Of a stretch of 64,000 nt of DNA, positions 17,501-23,500 are shown in pieces (position 1 is the stretch's first letter; the number at the start of each line of letters is the position of its first letter). Position numbers: made by a program. Source of the stretch: Escherichia coli (GTDB lineage Bacteria > Pseudomonadota > Gammaproteobacteria > Enterobacterales > Enterobacteriaceae); NCBI RefSeq assembly GCF_016026235.1, contig NZ_CP065613.1. One strand, written 5' to 3'.

Positions 17501-20500
17501 CCCCGCCTGGTTCGTGGCGATTTTTTCGCCATGAACCATAGTGTTTTTGTCCTGTTCCTGTTCTTTCTCCTGTTCCTGTTCTTGGCTTCGAAGCCCCTTT
17601 AAAGCCCCTTCGAAGCCCCTTACCGTATTTCGGTTGTTATTTCGCCTTACATCCAGATGAAAATCCGTCTTATATCTGTCATAAAACGCTGAAAGAAAAG
17701 CGTTTTCAGGTAATGACGCATATTCACTCCTGACACCTGCACAACGGTTATCGCCAGGCTTTAACTTTCCCCCAACCTGCCAGGCTGCCATTTCATGGAC
17801 CCAGACCATCTCGGAATCATGGTCATAACTGCAAAAACCCACTTCGACAGCCCTTCGAAGCCCCTTCGAAGCCCCTTCCGGACCAAGCCCGGTTTCATGA
17901 GCAAGGTACAAAACCGGCAGGTAATACAGGCCCAGCATGTTTGCGTGAGGGGATGTCATCAGGTAAAAAGCAACCACCTGCGCTTCTGCGCCTGCCTTTC
18001 TGAGTTCTTTCCCCGTTTCTCCCAGCCAGAATCGCGGGGAAACTTTTGCGTAATCACGCATGTCCACCTCATCTGGTGCCGAACCTTCCTCCGGATATAA
18101 TCTGTGATTCCCCAATCAACAGAACCAGAGGAGGTTCGACATGTCTTTTTTGAAAAGCCTTTATCGGGCTCATATATTAAAAGTTGCAGCAACAAATCAC
18201 TGGCAAGAAGGAACAGATGAAATGTTGCCGGATTACCGGGCATGGCTGCGCGCCGAAACATACCTTCGTCTCGATATGCTGATTAACGATCTTCAAAAAG
18301 AGGCTCCATCCACTCAAACCCTTCAGGGTGTCGGCGCTGTTCGCGTTCTGGTATCTCGCCATAACGCTCTCTCAGTAACTGAAGTGCGTCAGCTTTCTTT
18401 TGCTGAACTGATTTTCTTGCTTCAGCCAGCTCTGGAATCAGTGAATATCCCATCGGAGGTGTTCCGGTATCCGCCCCACGTGAACCAACAGCTACAAGCT
18501 GCACAAGACAACAGGCATGCTGGATTGACTCCCTGCTCAGAGGCTGAATGGGATCATTCTCTGCTGAAGAGATACCAAGATTTGTATAATCCTCAATAAG
18601 CCGGGCGCACGCTTCAGCATCAGCCAGTTTTTTTCTGGTTTCCTTGCGCTGTTCTCTGACGGACAAACGCCAGAGCAGCGCATTGGCTTTATGCATCAGC
18701 CACTCTGCCAGTTCCACATCAGATAAACCGCCACGCCAGATGTGTGGACTGTTTTCGTAAACGCTCAGTGTCAGTTTTTTGTCATTGGTCATATTTATTG
18801 CCCCGTCAATGCACAGCCAGAGTATTTCCTGCCGGACCACCACGATTCATCTGATCGAACAGAACGATCGCTGATGCAACGAAATCATCGATATCTTTCA
18901 CCAGCTGTTCCTGCGTCTCCAGCAGTTCCCGAAAATAAACTGAACTGTGGCTGCGCATTCGGGCCACCAGCGGAGGCGGCATTGCCTTTTCGATCGCTGG
19001 TAACAACGCCTGAATTTTTTTAACAGCATCAGGGGTGTCTTTCTCTATCCAGCGGAAAATTTTCTGGGTATTGCGAGCCAGGGCTTCCGGATGGCTGTCG
19101 TCGTACAGTTCAGGGAACGTCATCCCCAGTTCGAAATAAGTCCGGGCTATCTCAGCCGCCGGAACTTTCTCACCATCAGGATATGCCCATGCATTCATCG
19201 CCATACGGATGTGCTCATGCTTGATTTTCATGAATCACCCCCCGCCGATGGTTGTGTGTTAGCCTGAAACTCAGCAGGCAAGCCGTCAGTTGGGTTGGGG
19301 TAGGTTTTACTGTCAATCTCATGTGGGGTCACCACCCATCCCGTTGCTTCACACCAACGTAATATTTTTTCTCCTGTAAGTTTTGCACGCCCCGTTATAA
19401 CGTGGCTGACCATCCCCTGGGATGCGCCAACAATCTCAGCAAATGAACTCTGGGTTATATGAAAATGATGCAAATATTCTCCAAGATTCATAATCCGCCC
19501 TATGTGATGTGTTACCAACGCATAATTAATAGCACTGTTATTTTTGAAAGTAAATAGCGATGCTATTTCAAAGTGATTAGCAATCTTATTAGAATTGGAT
19601 GTATGAAAAGAAAATCACTGTCAGACACCGACCTCAACGCCGCCAGAAGACTGAAAGAAATCTGGATGGCAAAGAAATCTCAGTTGGGATTGACTCAGGA
19701 ACGTGCGGCGGAAATTATGGGGTTTTCAACACAAGGGGCGGTAAGTCACTACCTAAATGGTCAAACCCCACTAAACCTTGAGGCTGTTCTAAAGTTTGCT
19801 GGCTTACTGAAAGTTCCCCCTGAGTCAATCAGGCCAGACATGGCAGATTTGCTGCAAATTGCAAGGATGTATTGTCGAGAACCACAGCAAGATAACATAG
19901 TCGCATTACCAGCAGACACAGAACAAACAGAGGATGAACTACCGTTTGCCGTAGAGCCGATGGAACGAGATTTAATCCATACGTTCAGAGCTTTTCCGAA
20001 AGAAGATCAAGAACACATGCTTCAGGAGATGAAAGATAAAAAAGAATCAATGGATCGTACGGTTGCGCGGTGGTTAGCTGCACAAAAAGGCCGTCGCGCC
20101 TAAATCAGAGGAGATATGTAAAATGAGTACAGTCCTTTCCCCAATGGTTTCAGAATTTGAGACAGTTGAGCAAGAAAATAGTTACAACGAATGGCTGCGG
20201 GCCAAAGTAGCAGCAAGCCTCGCGGATCACCGCCCGGCGATTCCGCATGATGAGGTAATGGCGGAAATGGAACAAATTATTGCCCAAATTGCTGCTGCAA
20301 CTCACAGAGGTGAATAATGTTACCCGTTTTATGGCTACCATCTGCTCGTGATGATTTGCGCCAGATCGTAGCCTACATAGCTAAAGAAAATCCCGCGGCA
20401 GCACGCAGAATGAAAATTCGAATTGAAACATCCGTTTTGCCGCTCACAGAGCATCCTTACCTGTATCCTCCAAGCGAGCGAGTTCTTGGTCTTCGTGAAA

Positions 20501-23500
20501 TTGTAACTCATCCTAACTACATCATCCTTTACCGAGTAACAGCATCAAGCATAGAAGTAGTAAATATTGTGCATTCTCGAAGACAGTATCCAGGCAAAAA
20601 CAGTTAATTATTCCCGCCGACAGAACCACCTTAGGGTGGTTTTTTCTTGCTCCAACAAAAAACAATAGCGATGCTATTTACATCAAAAAATAATGATGCT
20701 ATTGTTTCAGGCGTCAACCCACCCCGCCCCACAGAATGCAGGGCAATACTTCGAGTTACCAGGTAGTGGTCAGGGGGTAAGTAGCCAGCCCGAGGCGTAA
20801 GAACATGACGGCAGGGTTCAACTTTAACTATGCAGCAGGTTTTTGTTCCGCTCCCCCGGCGTTAAGGGGAAATGAGGTCAACATGGATACTATCAATCTT
20901 GGCAACAACGAATCTCTGGTGTGCGGCGTGTTTCCCAACCAGGACGGCACGTTCACCGCGATGACGTATACCAAAAGCAAAACGTTTAAAACCGAATCTG
21001 GAGCGCGTCGCTGGCTGGAAAGAAATTCAGGTGGGTGATATGGATTTCGACACAATCATGGAAAAGGCTTACGAAGAATACTTCGAAGGCCTTGCCGAAG
21101 GCGAAGAAGCTCTCAGCTTCAGTGAGTTTAAACAGGCGCTTTCCAGCCCGGCAAAATCTAACGGCTGATAAGCGAAGCAGCACCGCGAGGAATCAGCGTG
21201 CAGAAACGAGAACCCATCATCATCGCGCCAGACTATACCGATGATGAACTTTATGAGTGGATGCGCCAGAAAATTAATGCAGCGCAGGATCTGAAATGGG
21301 CTAATGAAGCCAGGGCTAAGCAGGCTGAAAATCTGTCCGCTCTGGAGCAGGATATCACCAATCTGGAAAAAGCAGCGGCATTAAGCATTGCCAGAATGAT
21401 TACATACCCGCGTTAGTAGCTAATCAACAAAGCTAAGGTTAGTAATTAAGGAGTTCTCCACGGGTGAGGTGGAGTGCGTGCGCCGGACACGGGTGAGCAT
21501 CCGGCACTGACAGTTTACTGAAAGGATATTTCCCTGAAAAGTCAGACCATAACGCGAAAGCGCACGGCGAGGTAGCTGGTTCATAGATAGCCTGTCGTTA
21601 AATTTTCGTCGACCGTGCGCTTCCGGTTGTGGCAATCCGCGAAATGGCGCGGCGGTAAGTATGGCGGGGTTATTCCTTCCCCCGTTGAGGACACCGGGTT
21701 GTCAGGTTGACCATACGCTTAAGTGACAACCCCGCTGCAACGCCCTCTGTTATCAATTTTCTGGTGACGTTTGGCGGTATCAGTTTTACTCCGTGACTGC
21801 TCTGCCGCCCTTTTTAAAGTGAATTTTGTGATGTGGTGAATGCGGCTGAGCGCACGCGGAACAGTTAAAACCGAAAACAGTGTTATGGGTGGATTCTCTG
21901 TATCCGGCGTTAATTGTTAACTGGTTAACGTCACCTGGAAGCACCAGGCACCGCATCACAAAACTCATTGTTGAGGGCGCGATAATGAAAACGTTATTAC
22001 CAAACGTTAATACGTCTGAAGGTTGTTTTGAAATTGGTGTCACTATCAGTAATCCTGTATTCACTGAAGAGGCCATTAACAAAAGAAAACACGAACGGGA
22101 GTTATTAAATAAAGTATGCATTGTTTCAATGCTGGCCCGTTTACGTCTGATGCCAAAAGGATGTGCACAATGAATCCAGTATTTGCACTTATTCTGACGG
22201 TTTTTCTTGTTTCCGGAGAGCCAGTTGATATTGCAGTCAGTGTTCACAGAACAATGCAGGAATGTATGGCCGCAGCAACCGAACAGAAAATTCCAGGCAA
22301 CTGTTATCCGGTCGATAAAGTTATTCACCAGGATAACGAAATCCCGGCAGGATTTTAAAACAGCACCGTAATAAATATCCAGTTTCATTCTTATATGTCA
22401 GCAATGGCAGAGATTTGTTCACCCTTAAATCTGTGATGAGGTTTATCAATAATGAGCACTGATAAAGAAGAATTTGCACTATATTGCGAAGCAAAAAATG
22501 ACAAAGTAAGAAAACGCCTGGGAATTAAAGGTGGTTTTTACTGGACTACAGCAAAAAAATTATCTGTTGCAATCTCCCGCTGCATTACCGCAATGGATGA
22601 CAACGATTATGATGAAGACGACTTTAAAAAACCCGTCCGCGTCAATTTGCCCGTTGTTGACGACCTTCCGCCAGAAGGCGTGTTTGATACTGAATTCTGC
22701 AACCGCTATGAAAAAGGCGGGAAAGATGGCATCACAATGACATTTATCGGCCCTTCCCCCTCTGTTCAGGACAAATCAGCCAGCACTGATAATACCAACA
22801 TCAACGGCGAAGACATGACTGAGATTGAGGAGAGCATGCTTCTACCTGTCTCCGGTCAGGAACTGCCCATTCGTTGGCTTGCTCAACACGGCAGCGAAAA
22901 ACCAGTAACGCACGTTTCACGCGACGAACTCCAGGCATTACACATTGCACGGGCTGAAGAACTACCGGCTGTTACTGCCCTGGCTATTTCGCATAAAACC
23001 AGTCTGCTCGACTCGCTGGAGATTCGCGACCTCCACAAACTGGTTCGTGACACTGACAAAGTTTTCCCTAATCCTGGTAATTCAGACCTGGGACTAATAA
23101 CTGCTTTTTTCGAAGCATACCTGGACGCTGACTACACTGATCGGGGCCTGCTGACAAAAGAGTGGATGAAAGGAAATCGTGTTTCACGCATCACCCGCAC
23201 GGCTTCCGGTGCTAATGCTGGCGGTGGGAACAAAACCGATCGCAATCCGAATTTAGTACACACCCTCGACACACTGGATGTGGAGATTGCAGCAGCCACA
23301 CTTCCGATGGATTTTAATATTTATGAAATTCCGGGCAGCGTTTATCGTCGCGCAAAAGAAGTAGTCCTGAAAAAAGAAAGTCCGTTCAAAGAATGGTCCG
23401 CAGCACTTCGTGCAACCCCGGGTATTCTGGACTATTCCCGCGCCGCTATTTTTGCACTTATCCGAAGCGCACACCCTGAATTTTATCACTACCCGGGACG

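What the first reader, a model, noticed from the sequence alone, without database searches (positions are those of the whole stretch)
19528..20706. Repeated 13-bp palindromic operator candidates (ATAGC-N3-GCTAT) at two locations flanking the repressor/TA block
ATAGCGATGCTAT occurs at about 19554-19566 (between divergent repressor and cro-like genes) and again at about 20665-20677, with degenerate neighbours ATAGCACTGTTAT (about 19530) and AATGATGCTATTG (about 20691). This is the expected OR/OL architecture for a CI-like repressor and defines the immunity specificity of this prophage.
Basis: seen in the sequence. Interest (0 to 1): 0.5.

Follow-up and report, generated by a model that had tools for sequence, protein, structure and literature searches.

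The report
Prophage repressor operator sites (OR/OL)
The repeated palindromes are almost certainly the DNA sites where this lambda-like prophage's repressor and its Cro-like partner bind to keep the virus silent; this is a textbook arrangement with a binding sequence I did not find described in the papers I searched.

Summary
ATAGCGATGCTAT occurs exactly twice in 64 kb (19554-19566 and 20665-20677; 0.04 expected by chance), and each copy has a degenerate partner 25 bp away.

The true unit is a 17-bp palindrome, (A/T/C)AATAGy-RNY-rCTATT(T/G). Two more (20663-79, 20688-704) follow the repressor-PaaA-ParE operon and its terminator. The sites overlap three candidate promoters that match lambda's PR, PRM and PL.

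A weight matrix built only from relatives' sites finds exactly these four strong sites in the window. Six lineages whose repressors keep the recognition helix TQGAVSHYLN keep sites centred about -68 and -43 from the repressor ATG. Five also keep one near -20, and every locus long enough to show it has a downstream pair. This holds even where the toxin-antitoxin cargo differs or is absent. Relatives with other recognition helices carry other palindromes in the same places.

The repressor joins a lambda-CI-like N-terminal domain to a PaaR2-type C-terminal domain and has no S24 peptidase. The architecture was shown experimentally for CP-933P (Jurenas 2021). This is a new specificity of a known kind, and binding itself is untested.

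The parts
19527..19543 (.). ORa, at the position of lambda OR1: TAATAGCACTGTTATTT, overlapping the spacer and -10 of the leftward promoter PR
   Evidence: Scores 23.2 bits with the relatives' matrix. Its centre is -68 from the repressor ATG in the window and in L002, L003, L052, L054 and L057 (-66 in L056).
19552..19568 (.). ORb, at the position of lambda OR2: the perfect 17-bp palindrome AAATAGCGATGCTATTT. It overlaps the PR -35 by 3 bp and the PRM -35 by 2 bp.
   Evidence: Exact match and the top matrix score, 25.8 bits. Its centre is -43 from the ATG in five lineages (-41 in L056, -44 in L057). The outer AAATAG/CTATTT is invariant among the 11 variants seen.
19575..19591 (.). ORc, at the position of lambda OR3: the weak site GATTAGCAATCTTATTA, lying between the -35 and -10 of PRM
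   Evidence: A near-identical 17-mer, GATTAGTAAAACTATTA, sits at the same offset (-19/-20) in the divergent loci L052 and L054, and AAATACAGATACTATTA in L056. This site was not used to build the matrix and does not appear among its 15 best positions in the window.
19526..19554 (-). Candidate PR: -35 TTTACT (19554-19549), 17-nt spacer, -10 TATTAA (19531-19526), driving the cro-like and ydaT-like genes
   Evidence: Read from the minus strand. It is a paralogue of PL: a 40-nt inverted repeat, 78% complementary, joins 19528-19567 to 20664-20703. It matches 8 of 12 consensus positions, below the scan tool's threshold, so it is inferred.
19567..19595 (+). Candidate PRM: -35 TTCAAA, 17-nt spacer, -10 TAGAAT. 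The predicted transcription start falls on the A of the repressor ATG (19603), giving a leaderless mRNA.
   Evidence: Promoter scan. There are 7 nt between the -10 and the ATG. Leaderless paaR2 was shown by 5' RACE in CP-933P (PMC8630535).
19228..19491 (-). Cro-like (YdaS-like) HTH gene, 87 aa
   Evidence: Pfam HTH_3 and phrog_35. Its helix 3, SQGMVSH, resembles the repressor's TQGAVSH (BLASTP 38% over the HTH, E=6e-7).
18806..19231 (-). YdaT-like (CII-analogue) gene
   Evidence: Pfam YdaT_toxin E=1e-9. phrog_163, CII-like activator, E=9e-45.
19221..19238 (.). Candidate YdaT box TTGATTTTCATGAATCAC at the ydaS/ydaT junction
   Evidence: One mismatch to TTGATT-N6-AATCAA. It is at the same place as the footprinted OM site of CP-933P (PMC9986795). 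The pattern is not enriched in the window overall, so its position is the only argument.
19603..20103 (+). Repressor, 166 aa: a lambda-CI-like N-terminal domain, a disordered linker and a two-helix PaaR2-type C-terminal domain
   Evidence: PDB 1lmb E=1.3e-9 over residues 2-82. Foldseek matches to lambda CI N-terminal-domain chains with target-normalised TM 0.81-0.93. AlphaFold2 gives helices 8-91, a linker 92-110 with pLDDT<50 and helices 119-165. The C-terminal domain is 41% identical to a PaaR2-like protein and matches phrog_5736 at E=2e-7. No S24 peptidase domain was found.
20123..20317 (+). PaaA2-like antitoxin
   Evidence: Pfam PF21217 PaaA2, E=2e-21.
20317..20607 (+). ParE toxin
   Evidence: Pfam ParE_toxin E=2e-17. 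PDB 5cw7 (ParE2) E=7e-37.
20622..20650 (+). Intrinsic-terminator-like hairpin plus T run, ending the repressor-toxin-antitoxin operon just before OL
   Evidence: Terminator scan. It is conserved in relatives.
20663..20679 (.). OL1: CAATAGCGATGCTATTT, overlapping the PL -35 by 3 bp
   Evidence: Exact 13-mer. 23.7 bits. Conserved in position in relatives.
20688..20704 (.). OL2: AAATAATGATGCTATTG, overlapping the spacer and -10 of PL
   Evidence: 19.3 bits. It lies 25 bp from OL1 in 38 of 45 loci.
20677..20705 (+). Candidate PL: -35 TTTACA, 17-nt spacer, -10 TATTGT with an upstream TG, driving ydfA-ydfB-ydfC-DicF-dicB
   Evidence: Promoter scan. Downstream features: DUF1391/ydfA, DicF at 21759-21810, and the annotation of the 99.3% identical locus L001.

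Best explanation
The five 17-bp palindromes are the operators of a lambda-type genetic switch.

How it would work. Dimers of the 166-aa repressor bind ORa and ORb and block the leftward promoter PR, which drives the cro-like and ydaT/CII-like genes and then replication. They also bind OL1 and OL2 and block the rightward promoter PL, which drives ydfABC, DicF and DicB and then exo/int. ORb is centred at -43 from the predicted leaderless start of the repressor gene. That is the position from which lambda CI at OR2 activates PRM, so positive autoregulation is likely. The weak site ORc lies inside PRM and would shut it off at high repressor concentration. The Cro-like protein has nearly the same recognition helix and most likely binds the same sites with the opposite preference.

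The PaaR2-type C-terminal domain probably supplies oligomerisation. That would allow cooperative binding and possibly looping between OR and OL, which are 1.1 kb apart. The PaaA-ParE toxin-antitoxin pair rides on the repressor transcript, in the slot that rexAB occupies in lambda.

What is shown here: the sites, their statistics, their conservation, their co-variation with the recognition helices, the gene identities and the domain homologies.

What is inferred: actual binding, transcription start points, activation, the order in which sites fill, oligomeric state, looping and how induction occurs. There is no S24 domain, so RecA-stimulated self-cleavage is unlikely.
For: 1. Statistics. The exact 13-mer occurs twice against 0.04 expected. 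AATAG-N5-CTATT with up to 1 mismatch gives 6 hits against 1.5 expected, and 4 of them are these sites. A matrix from relatives' sites picks only these four sites (19.3-25.8 bits; next best 9.3).

2. Promoter overlap. PRM and PL were found by the scan. PR is the inverted paralogue of PL.

3. Conservation among close relatives. In about 45 relatives with an identical helix-turn-helix (78-100% repressor identity), the outer AATA/TATT bases of the four strong sites are invariant. The centre varies but keeps an R-N-Y symmetry.

4. Conservation among distant relatives. The loci are L052 (Salmonella, 47% identical repressor, with HigBA as cargo), L054 (a double-HTH repressor with no toxin-antitoxin pair), L056 and L057. 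All keep the helix TQGAVSHYLN. In each locus a loose core pattern hits only these operator positions. The hits are centred at about -68 and -43, with a third near -20 in all but L057. L052 and L054 also have a downstream pair; L057 shows one downstream pattern hit, with a second 24 bp away in the matrix scan; the 1.3-kb contig L056 shows none.

5. Three-way co-variation across three immunity types:
- Window type: repressor TQGAVSH, Cro (S/T)QG(M/L/S)(V/I)SH, operators AATAG..CTATT.
- L048 type: repressor AQQSVQKW, Cro PQQVVCRW, operators ACACTTT-n-AAAGTGT, again 3 + 2 sites.
- L045 / CP-933P type: repressor KSYLSQLM, Cro SPSFLSQM, GTTTAGT-type repeats.

6. Module exchange. Phage vB_EcoM-606R7 is 98.5% identical from 20715 rightwards and 85% identical up to 19238. 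In between it carries a different cro, a different 214-aa cI-position repressor and different palindromes.

7. Repressor domain. The N-terminal domain is a lambda CI N-terminal-domain homologue with a basic N-terminal arm.

8. Experimental precedent. In CP-933P, PaaR2 and YdaS footprint on OR, repress PR, PRM and PL, low PaaR2 activates PRM, and paaR2 mRNA is leaderless (PMC8630535).
Against: - No binding, footprint, transcription-start or reporter data exist for this repressor or these sites.
- PR reaches only 8 of 12 consensus positions, so the scan tool did not call it.
- The outer half-site bases of ORa and OL2 double as -10 hexamer bases (TATTAA, TATTGT). Part of their conservation could therefore be promoter constraint.
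- ORc departs from the half-site at one otherwise invariant position (A3 to T) and is not among the 15 best matrix positions in the window.
- In CP-933P the authors could not say which of two overlapping repeat types each protein reads.
- The relatives' sites are homologous by descent, so the conservation counts are not independent events.
Confidence: 0.85

Rival explanations
1. The palindromes are operators of the Cro-like (YdaS-like) protein only, and the 166-aa repressor reads some other element in the same regions.
For: The Cro-like helix 3, (S/T)QGxVSH, is kept in every locus that has these sites. In CP-933P two overlapping repeat types were seen and not assigned to either protein.
Against: The repressor's helix 3, TQGAVSHYLN, is kept just as strictly and resembles the Cro helix. 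No other repeated element exists in 19480-20760 apart from these sites. A lambda-CI-type N-terminal domain with a basic arm binds 17-bp palindromes in the solved complexes that are its closest matches.
Confidence: 0.06
2. The similarity of the two regions reflects only a duplicated promoter (PR and PL are paralogues). The palindromic look is a by-product and has no operator role.
For: The 40-nt inverted repeat between 19528-19567 and 20664-20703 covers promoter elements as well as the sites. The TATT of two sites forms part of the -10 hexamers.
Against: ORb and OL1 are palindromic outside any -10 element. The dyad symmetry (R8-N-Y10 and invariant A2A3T4A5/T13A14T15T16) is kept while the central bases change. 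ORc repeats the half-site inside a different promoter, PRM. Other immunity types have different palindromes at the same positions relative to promoters of the same layout.
Confidence: 0.03
3. The sites are autoregulatory operators of the toxin-antitoxin pair, bound by the PaaA-ParE complex as in classical type II systems.
For: The sites flank the toxin-antitoxin block, and classical antitoxins do bind palindromes at their own promoters.
Against: PaaA2 has no DNA-binding domain, and regulation in CP-933P is by the third component (PMC8630535). The same sites at the same offsets occur where the cargo is HigB/HigA (L052) or where there is no toxin-antitoxin pair at all (L054).
Confidence: 0.02
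4. The repeats are a chance recurrence of an AT-rich word.
For: The region is AT-rich. A 15-mer scan of 2.9 million viral contigs returned at least 120 stretches, many of them in metagenome contigs not otherwise linked to this module (their contexts were not examined). So the word alone is not diagnostic.
Against: 0.04 matches are expected in the window. The sites keep fixed 23-25 bp spacing and a fixed offset from the ATG across six lineages.
Confidence: 0.01

Closest known systems
Immunity region of cryptic prophage CP-933P / Sp12 of E. coli O157:H7 (paaR2-paaA2-parE2 with divergent ydaS-ydaT; Jurenas et al. 2021, PMC8630535)
   Same: - Same gene order: ydaT, ydaS, OR, then repressor-PaaA-ParE, OL/PL, then early-left genes.
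- PaaA2 and ParE homologues are present.
- A YdaT homologue and a candidate YdaT box sit at the ydaS/ydaT junction.
- The repressor's C-terminal domain is homologous to PaaR2's.
- A leaderless repressor mRNA is predicted, with a tripartite OR and a second operator set at PL.
   Different: - The DNA-binding domain is not PaaR2-like. It is a lambda-CI N-terminal-domain homologue, and BLASTP aligns only the C-terminal domains.
- The operator sequence is different: AATAG-N5-CTATT here against GTTTAGTAA-type 18-bp inverted repeats there.
- I see two OL sites here, whereas three are reported there.
- None of the biochemistry has been done for this type.
Bacteriophage lambda CI / Cro with OR1-3, OL, PR, PRM and PL
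   Same: - The repressor's N-terminal domain is homologous at 38-41% identity, including the basic arm.
- Operators are 17 bp.
- There are three OR sites with 25- and 23-bp spacing (lambda has 24 and 23; my own knowledge).
- ORb is at -43 and ORc at -20 from the PRM start (lambda OR2 at about -42 and OR3 at about -19; my own knowledge).
- The repressor mRNA is leaderless.
- A cargo pair follows the repressor gene in the rexAB slot.
- By the alignment, the acidic helix-2 residues corresponding to lambda E34 and D38 are E33 and E37 here.
   Different: - There is no S24 (LexA-like) autopeptidase domain, so RecA-mediated cleavage is not expected.
- The C-terminal domain is a short two-helix PaaR2-type module.
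- The operator sequence is unrelated to TATCACCGCCAGTGGTA.
- Only two OL sites are seen.
- Cro here is an HTH_3/YdaS-type protein, and the CII analogue is YdaT.
DicA/DicC of the Qin prophage and RacR/YdaS of the Rac prophage in E. coli K-12
   Same: These are defective lambdoid immunity regions with a divergent repressor and cro-like pair. The repressed rightward operon here is ydfA-ydfB-ydfC-DicF-dicB, the operon that DicA controls in Qin (my own knowledge).
   Different: The repressors, their specificities and their operators are different, and those regions carry no PaaA-ParE cargo. I did not compare the sequences here.

Membership tests
Lambda CI-type repressor | N-terminal five-helix lambda-repressor-like DNA-binding domain with an N-terminal arm | tested here: met
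   phmmer against PDB 1lmb: E=1.3e-9 over residues 2-82. The AlphaFold2 model matches lambda CI N-terminal-domain chains with target-normalised TM 0.81-0.93 and rmsd 1-2 A.
Lambda CI-type repressor | C-terminal S24 (LexA-like) autopeptidase and oligomerisation domain with an Ala-Gly cleavage site | tested here: not met
   Pfam finds only HTH_3 and HTH_31. Residues 97-165 match phrog_5736 (PaaR2-type). The model shows two helices there, not a beta-rich S24 fold.
Lambda CI-type repressor | Tripartite OR between divergent PR and PRM, plus a second operator set at PL | tested here: met
   Three sites lie at -68, -43 and -20 from the ATG and two after the operon, overlapping promoter candidates.
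Lambda CI-type repressor | Specific, cooperative binding of the repressor to the operators | not testable with these tools
   Needs EMSA, footprinting or ChIP.
PaaR-PaaA-ParE three-component module in a YdaS/YdaT-type lambdoid immunity region | Regulator, PaaA antitoxin and ParE toxin encoded in that order on one strand | tested here: met
   19603-20103, 20123-20317 and 20317-20607. PaaA2 Pfam E=2e-21 and ParE Pfam E=2e-17. ParE2 PDB 5cw7 E=7e-37. One terminator follows parE.
PaaR-PaaA-ParE three-component module in a YdaS/YdaT-type lambdoid immunity region | The regulator is homologous to PaaR2 | tested here: inconclusive
   Only the C-terminal domain is homologous. It is 41% identical over 64 residues to the PaaR2-like protein of L045, and it resembles the peptides I translated from the published PaaR2 primers. 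The N-terminal domain shows no detectable similarity to PaaR2's.
PaaR-PaaA-ParE three-component module in a YdaS/YdaT-type lambdoid immunity region | Divergent ydaS (Cro analogue) and ydaT (CII analogue) genes | tested here: met
   Pfam YdaT_toxin and HTH_3. phrog_163 (CII-like) and phrog_35.
PaaR-PaaA-ParE three-component module in a YdaS/YdaT-type lambdoid immunity region | CP-933P operator specificity (GTTTAGTAA-type inverted repeats) | tested here: not met
   The window's sites are AATAG-N5-CTATT. GTTTAGT-type repeats are seen instead in L045, whose regulator has the PaaR2-like N-terminal domain.

The most novel reading that the evidence does not exclude
This may be a natural hybrid switch: a lambda-CI DNA-binding domain and lambda's OR geometry, kept almost to the base pair, grafted onto the non-cleavable PaaR2 oligomerisation domain. 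If so, lysogeny would be SOS-independent and bistable, released by an antirepressor or by stochastic switching.

The centre of the OR2-position and OL1 operators (positions 7-11) is unusually changeable among near-identical prophages. That centre might be under diversifying selection, tuning repressor affinity or creating new immunity sub-types, possibly together with changes in the N-terminal arm (S5P, D8E, T9I).
Probability: 0.2. Interest if true: 0.45.

Novelty: new member of a known kind. Interest (0 to 1): 0.25.

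Why it matters
- It fixes the operator sequence, promoter layout and module boundaries (19239-20714) of an immunity type that is annotated only as "helix-turn-helix domain-containing protein". Related modules (about 80% identical or better over the whole region) occur in about 70 of 5,426 complete E. coli genomes. The window's own type is in only one of them, and the near-identical proteins in the protein database are named as Shigella sonnei.
- It gives a ready test case for how a lambda-CI DNA-binding domain works without the RecA-cleavable domain.
- It extends the CP-933P model to a second and a third specificity class with clean repressor / Cro / operator co-variation.
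- Practically, the repressor and its sites keep the DicF and DicB division inhibitors and a ParE toxin under control. The motif can also be used to assign prophages to immunity groups.
- It does not change any concept.

Tried and rejected
- **Exact 15-mer scan of IMG/VR.** It returned at least 120 stretches, many of them in metagenome contigs not otherwise linked to this module, which is roughly what I would expect by chance in a collection that large. The test is uninformative about specificity.
- **Search for SOS control.** CTGT-N8-ACAG gave three hits, all outside the prophage and with GC-rich centres. A consensus-match scan for LexA boxes found nothing convincing near a candidate antirepressor. 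The induction route remains open.
- **Locating authentic paaR2 of O157:H7.** A DNA search with the PaaR2-like gene of L045 gave only 19 non-O157 genomes. PaaR2 is not among PDB sequences. I used the published primer sequences instead.
- **Folding the conserved PL leader, 20712-20885.** It folds no better than shuffles (z=+1.57), and Rfam finds only DicF.
- **A third OL site.** None was found upstream of OL1 or downstream of OL2.
- **Co-variation between N-terminal-arm residues and operator centres.** By eye there is no clear pattern.

Full report
**Observation**

It occurs nowhere else on either strand of the 64-kb window. Dinucleotide-preserving shuffles give 0.04 matches on average, and none of 100 gave two. 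The degenerate partners are at 19529-19541 (ATAGCACTGTTAT, 1 mismatch) and 20690-20702 (ATAATGATGCTAT, 2 mismatches).

Reading the flanks and comparing relatives shows that the real unit is 17 bp. The sites are TAATAGCACTGTTATTT (19527-43), AAATAGCGATGCTATTT (19552-68, a perfect palindrome), CAATAGCGATGCTATTT (20663-79) and AAATAATGATGCTATTG (20688-704).

**Context**

The left group lies in the 111-bp gap between two divergent genes. One is an 87-aa HTH gene on the minus strand (19228-19491), followed by a YdaT-family gene (18806-19231). The other is a 166-aa HTH gene on the plus strand (19603-20103). After that gene come a PaaA2-family antitoxin (20123-20317), a ParE toxin (20317-20607; ParE2 structure 5cw7, E=7e-37) and a terminator-like hairpin (20622-20650).

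The right group comes immediately after the terminator. It overlaps a promoter-like site, TTTACA-17-TATTGT (20677-20705), that faces ydfA/ydfB/ydfC, the DicF RNA (21759-21810) and dicB.

In the left group, the scan finds TTCAAA-17-TAGAAT (19567-19595). Its -10 ends 7 nt before the repressor ATG, which predicts a leaderless mRNA. On the other strand TTTACT-17-TATTAA (19554-19526) faces the cro-like gene. It is weaker than the scan threshold, but it is the inverted paralogue of the right-hand promoter: a 40-nt inverted repeat, 78% complementary, joins 19528-19567 to 20664-20703.

The whole block sits in a lambdoid prophage. Replication genes lie to the left. Exonuclease and integrase lie to the right, next to tRNA-Ser(CGA).

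**Is it more than chance, and is it specific?**

I built a 17-bp weight matrix only from the sites of relatives that are 78-83% identical in the repressor. In the window it scores the four strong sites at 25.8, 23.7, 23.2 and 19.3 bits. The next best position in 64 kb scores 9.3. The best score in 30 shuffled windows was 18.7. AATAG-N5-CTATT with up to one mismatch gives six hits against 1.5 expected, and four of them are these sites.

**Comparative evidence**

- **Close relatives.** Forty-eight IMG/VR loci and three E. coli loci encode relatives of the repressor. About 45 of them have an identical helix-turn-helix. In those, positions 2-5 and 13-16 (AATA/TATT) of the four strong sites never change, position 6/12 is mostly G/C, and the centre changes freely. 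The changes are mainly transitions, so that position 8 stays a purine and position 10 a pyrimidine. That is the pattern expected of a site read by a symmetric dimer.
- **Distant relatives.** More telling are proteins that keep the recognition helix TQGAVSHYLN while everything else has diverged. One is a Salmonella diarizonae repressor, 47% identical, whose cargo is HigB/HigA (L052). Another is a 255-aa double-HTH repressor with no toxin-antitoxin pair (L054). Two are metagenomic proteins with unrelated C-termini (L056, L057). A deliberately loose pattern, nA[AT]TA-N7-T[AT]TTn, hits each of these loci only at the operator positions. The hits are centred at -66 to -68 and -41 to -44 from the repressor ATG, with a third at -19 or -20 in all but L057. 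L052 and L054 also have a pair downstream of the operon; L057 has one downstream pattern hit, with a second 24 bp away in the matrix scan; the 1.3-kb contig L056 has none. The weak third site is nearly identical (GATTAGTAAAACTATTA) in L052 and L054.
- **Other immunity types.** Relatives that share only the C-terminal domain carry other helices and other palindromes in the same places. L048 has repressor helix AQQSVQKW, Cro helix PQQVVCRW and ACACTTT-n-AAAGTGT sites, three upstream and two downstream. L045 has a PaaR2-like regulator (KSYLSQLM), Cro helix SPSFLSQM and GTTTAGT-type repeats.
- **Repressor and Cro pair up.** In every type the repressor and Cro helices resemble each other. In the window they are TQGAVSH and SQGMVSH (BLASTP E=6e-7 over the HTH).
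- **Module exchange.** Phage vB_EcoM-606R7 is 98.5% identical to the window from 20715 rightwards and 85% identical up to 19238. Between those points it has a different cro, a different 214-aa repressor at the cI position and different palindromes. So 19239-20714 behaves as an exchangeable immunity module with the operators at its two ends.

**The repressor**

Residues 2-82 are homologous to the lambda CI N-terminal domain (E=1.3e-9, about 40% identity). The similarity includes the basic N-terminal arm and, by the alignment, the acidic helix-2 positions that correspond to lambda E34 and D38. An AlphaFold2 model has five N-terminal helices, a disordered linker (92-110) and two C-terminal helices (119-130, 133-165). 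Its N-terminal domain superposes on lambda CI N-terminal-domain structures with target-normalised TM 0.81-0.93.

There is no S24 peptidase domain. The C-terminal 64 residues are 41% identical to a PaaR2-like regulator and match phrog_5736. They also resemble peptides I translated from the published PaaR2 primers: AFPEDEQ, ARWIAA and a KCRRA end.

**Mechanism proposed**

By position, ORa and ORb cover PR, OL1 and OL2 cover PL, ORb touches the -35 of PRM, and ORc lies inside PRM. With the start at the ATG, ORb is at -43, ORc at -20 and ORa at -68. From my own knowledge, lambda OR2, OR3 and OR1 are at about -42, -19 and -66.

The likely behaviour therefore copies lambda. The repressor blocks PR and PL, stimulates its own promoter from ORb, and shuts it off through ORc at high concentration. 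Cro uses the same sites in the reverse order. The C-terminal domain gives higher-order oligomers, cooperativity and perhaps OR-OL looping over 1.1 kb.

These steps were shown experimentally for the CP-933P homologue. PaaR2 and YdaS footprint on OR and repress PR, PRM and PL. Low PaaR2 stimulates PRM. The paaR2 mRNA is leaderless, and PaaR2 forms octamers (PMC8630535). For the window they are inferences. How induction occurs is unknown: I found no cleavable domain and no convincing LexA box in the part of the prophage that I can see.

**Comparison with what is known, and novelty**

The architecture is textbook lambda, and it is specifically that of the PaaR2-PaaA2-ParE2/YdaS/YdaT immunity region of CP-933P. 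Three things are particular here:
- the DNA-binding domain is lambda-CI-like rather than PaaR2-like;
- the operator sequence is therefore different;
- the lambda OR geometry is kept very closely.

I found no description of this specificity in the papers I searched. In RefSeq the protein is annotated only as a helix-turn-helix domain protein. I rate it a new member of a known kind, of modest interest.

**What led nowhere**

An exact 15-mer scan of IMG/VR returned what looks like chance-level noise. The PL leader is conserved in about 2,400 E. coli genomes but does not fold better than shuffles. I could not retrieve the authentic PaaR2 protein.

Noticed in passing
window 19552-19568 and 20663-20679; L006-L044: Among prophages whose 115-bp OR region is otherwise almost identical, the central 3-5 bp of the OR2-position site and of OL1 take many states (GAT, ATC, ACT, ATT, GCC, ACC, AAC, GTT). 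Within the 78% group, about 3 of 7 variable columns fall in the 3 central columns. The changes are mostly transitions that keep R8-N-Y10. This could be relaxed constraint, affinity tuning or diversifying selection.
   Followed up: partly
window 19221-19238: TTGATTTTCATGAATCAC has one mismatch to the footprinted YdaT operator TTGATT-N6-AATCAA of CP-933P. It lies exactly at the ydaS stop / ydaT start junction, as in CP-933P, so it is a likely PRE-type control site. It is also the left breakpoint of the exchangeable immunity module.
   Followed up: partly
window 20715-20800: The first 86 nt or so downstream of the predicted PL start are 94-98% identical in about 2,400 of 5,426 complete E. coli genomes, although the immunity modules next to them differ. 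There is no Rfam match and the segment folds no better than shuffles (z=+1.57). Its function is unknown; it might be a leader, a nut-like site or a recombination joint.
   Followed up: partly
window 21759-21810 and 21985-22173: DicF RNA (Rfam, 76.7 bits) and a DicB-like ORF (MKTLLPNVNTSEGCFEIG...) lie in the operon downstream of the OL/PL sites. The repressor would therefore be what keeps two cell-division inhibitors silent.
   Followed up: partly
P0013-P0023 (L054, L055); L045 2821-3625: Some relatives are 240-255-aa proteins that fuse the lambda-like HTH domain, a second L048-type HTH domain and the PaaR-type C-terminal domain. L045 carries two complete repressor genes of different types in tandem, upstream of PaaA-ParE. 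Both look like recombination products between immunity types.
   Followed up: no
L052 3112-3839; L054 3268-3500: The cargo slot between the repressor gene and OL is variable. It holds PaaA-ParE in the window, HigB-HigA in a Salmonella diarizonae relative, and nothing in L054. It is analogous to lambda's rexAB slot.
   Followed up: partly
L005, L007, L008, L010, L011 (OL region): The A-run between OL1 and OL2 varies in length among 99% identical loci. The OL1-OL2 distance is 24-28 bp instead of 25, which would change the PL -35/-10 spacer from 17 nt to as much as 20. This is either homopolymer sequencing error or inactivation of PL in decaying prophages.
   Followed up: no
window 11365-11674; 25155-26312; 27304-45990: The prophage carries a four-tRNA cluster (Gly-Thr-Lys-Met). 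Its integrase gene (25155-26195) abuts tRNA-Ser(CGA) at 26223-26312, the probable attachment site. The host flank has four tRNA-Asn genes and a 2,643-aa ORF (27742-35673).
   Followed up: no
window 19603-20103: The closest named proteins (99% identical, a cluster of 77 member sequences) are from Shigella sonnei. Only one of 5,426 complete E. coli genomes (strain RMDEC465) carries this exact immunity type at 99% or more, and about 70 carry versions about 80% identical. The window may therefore come from Shigella.
   Followed up: no
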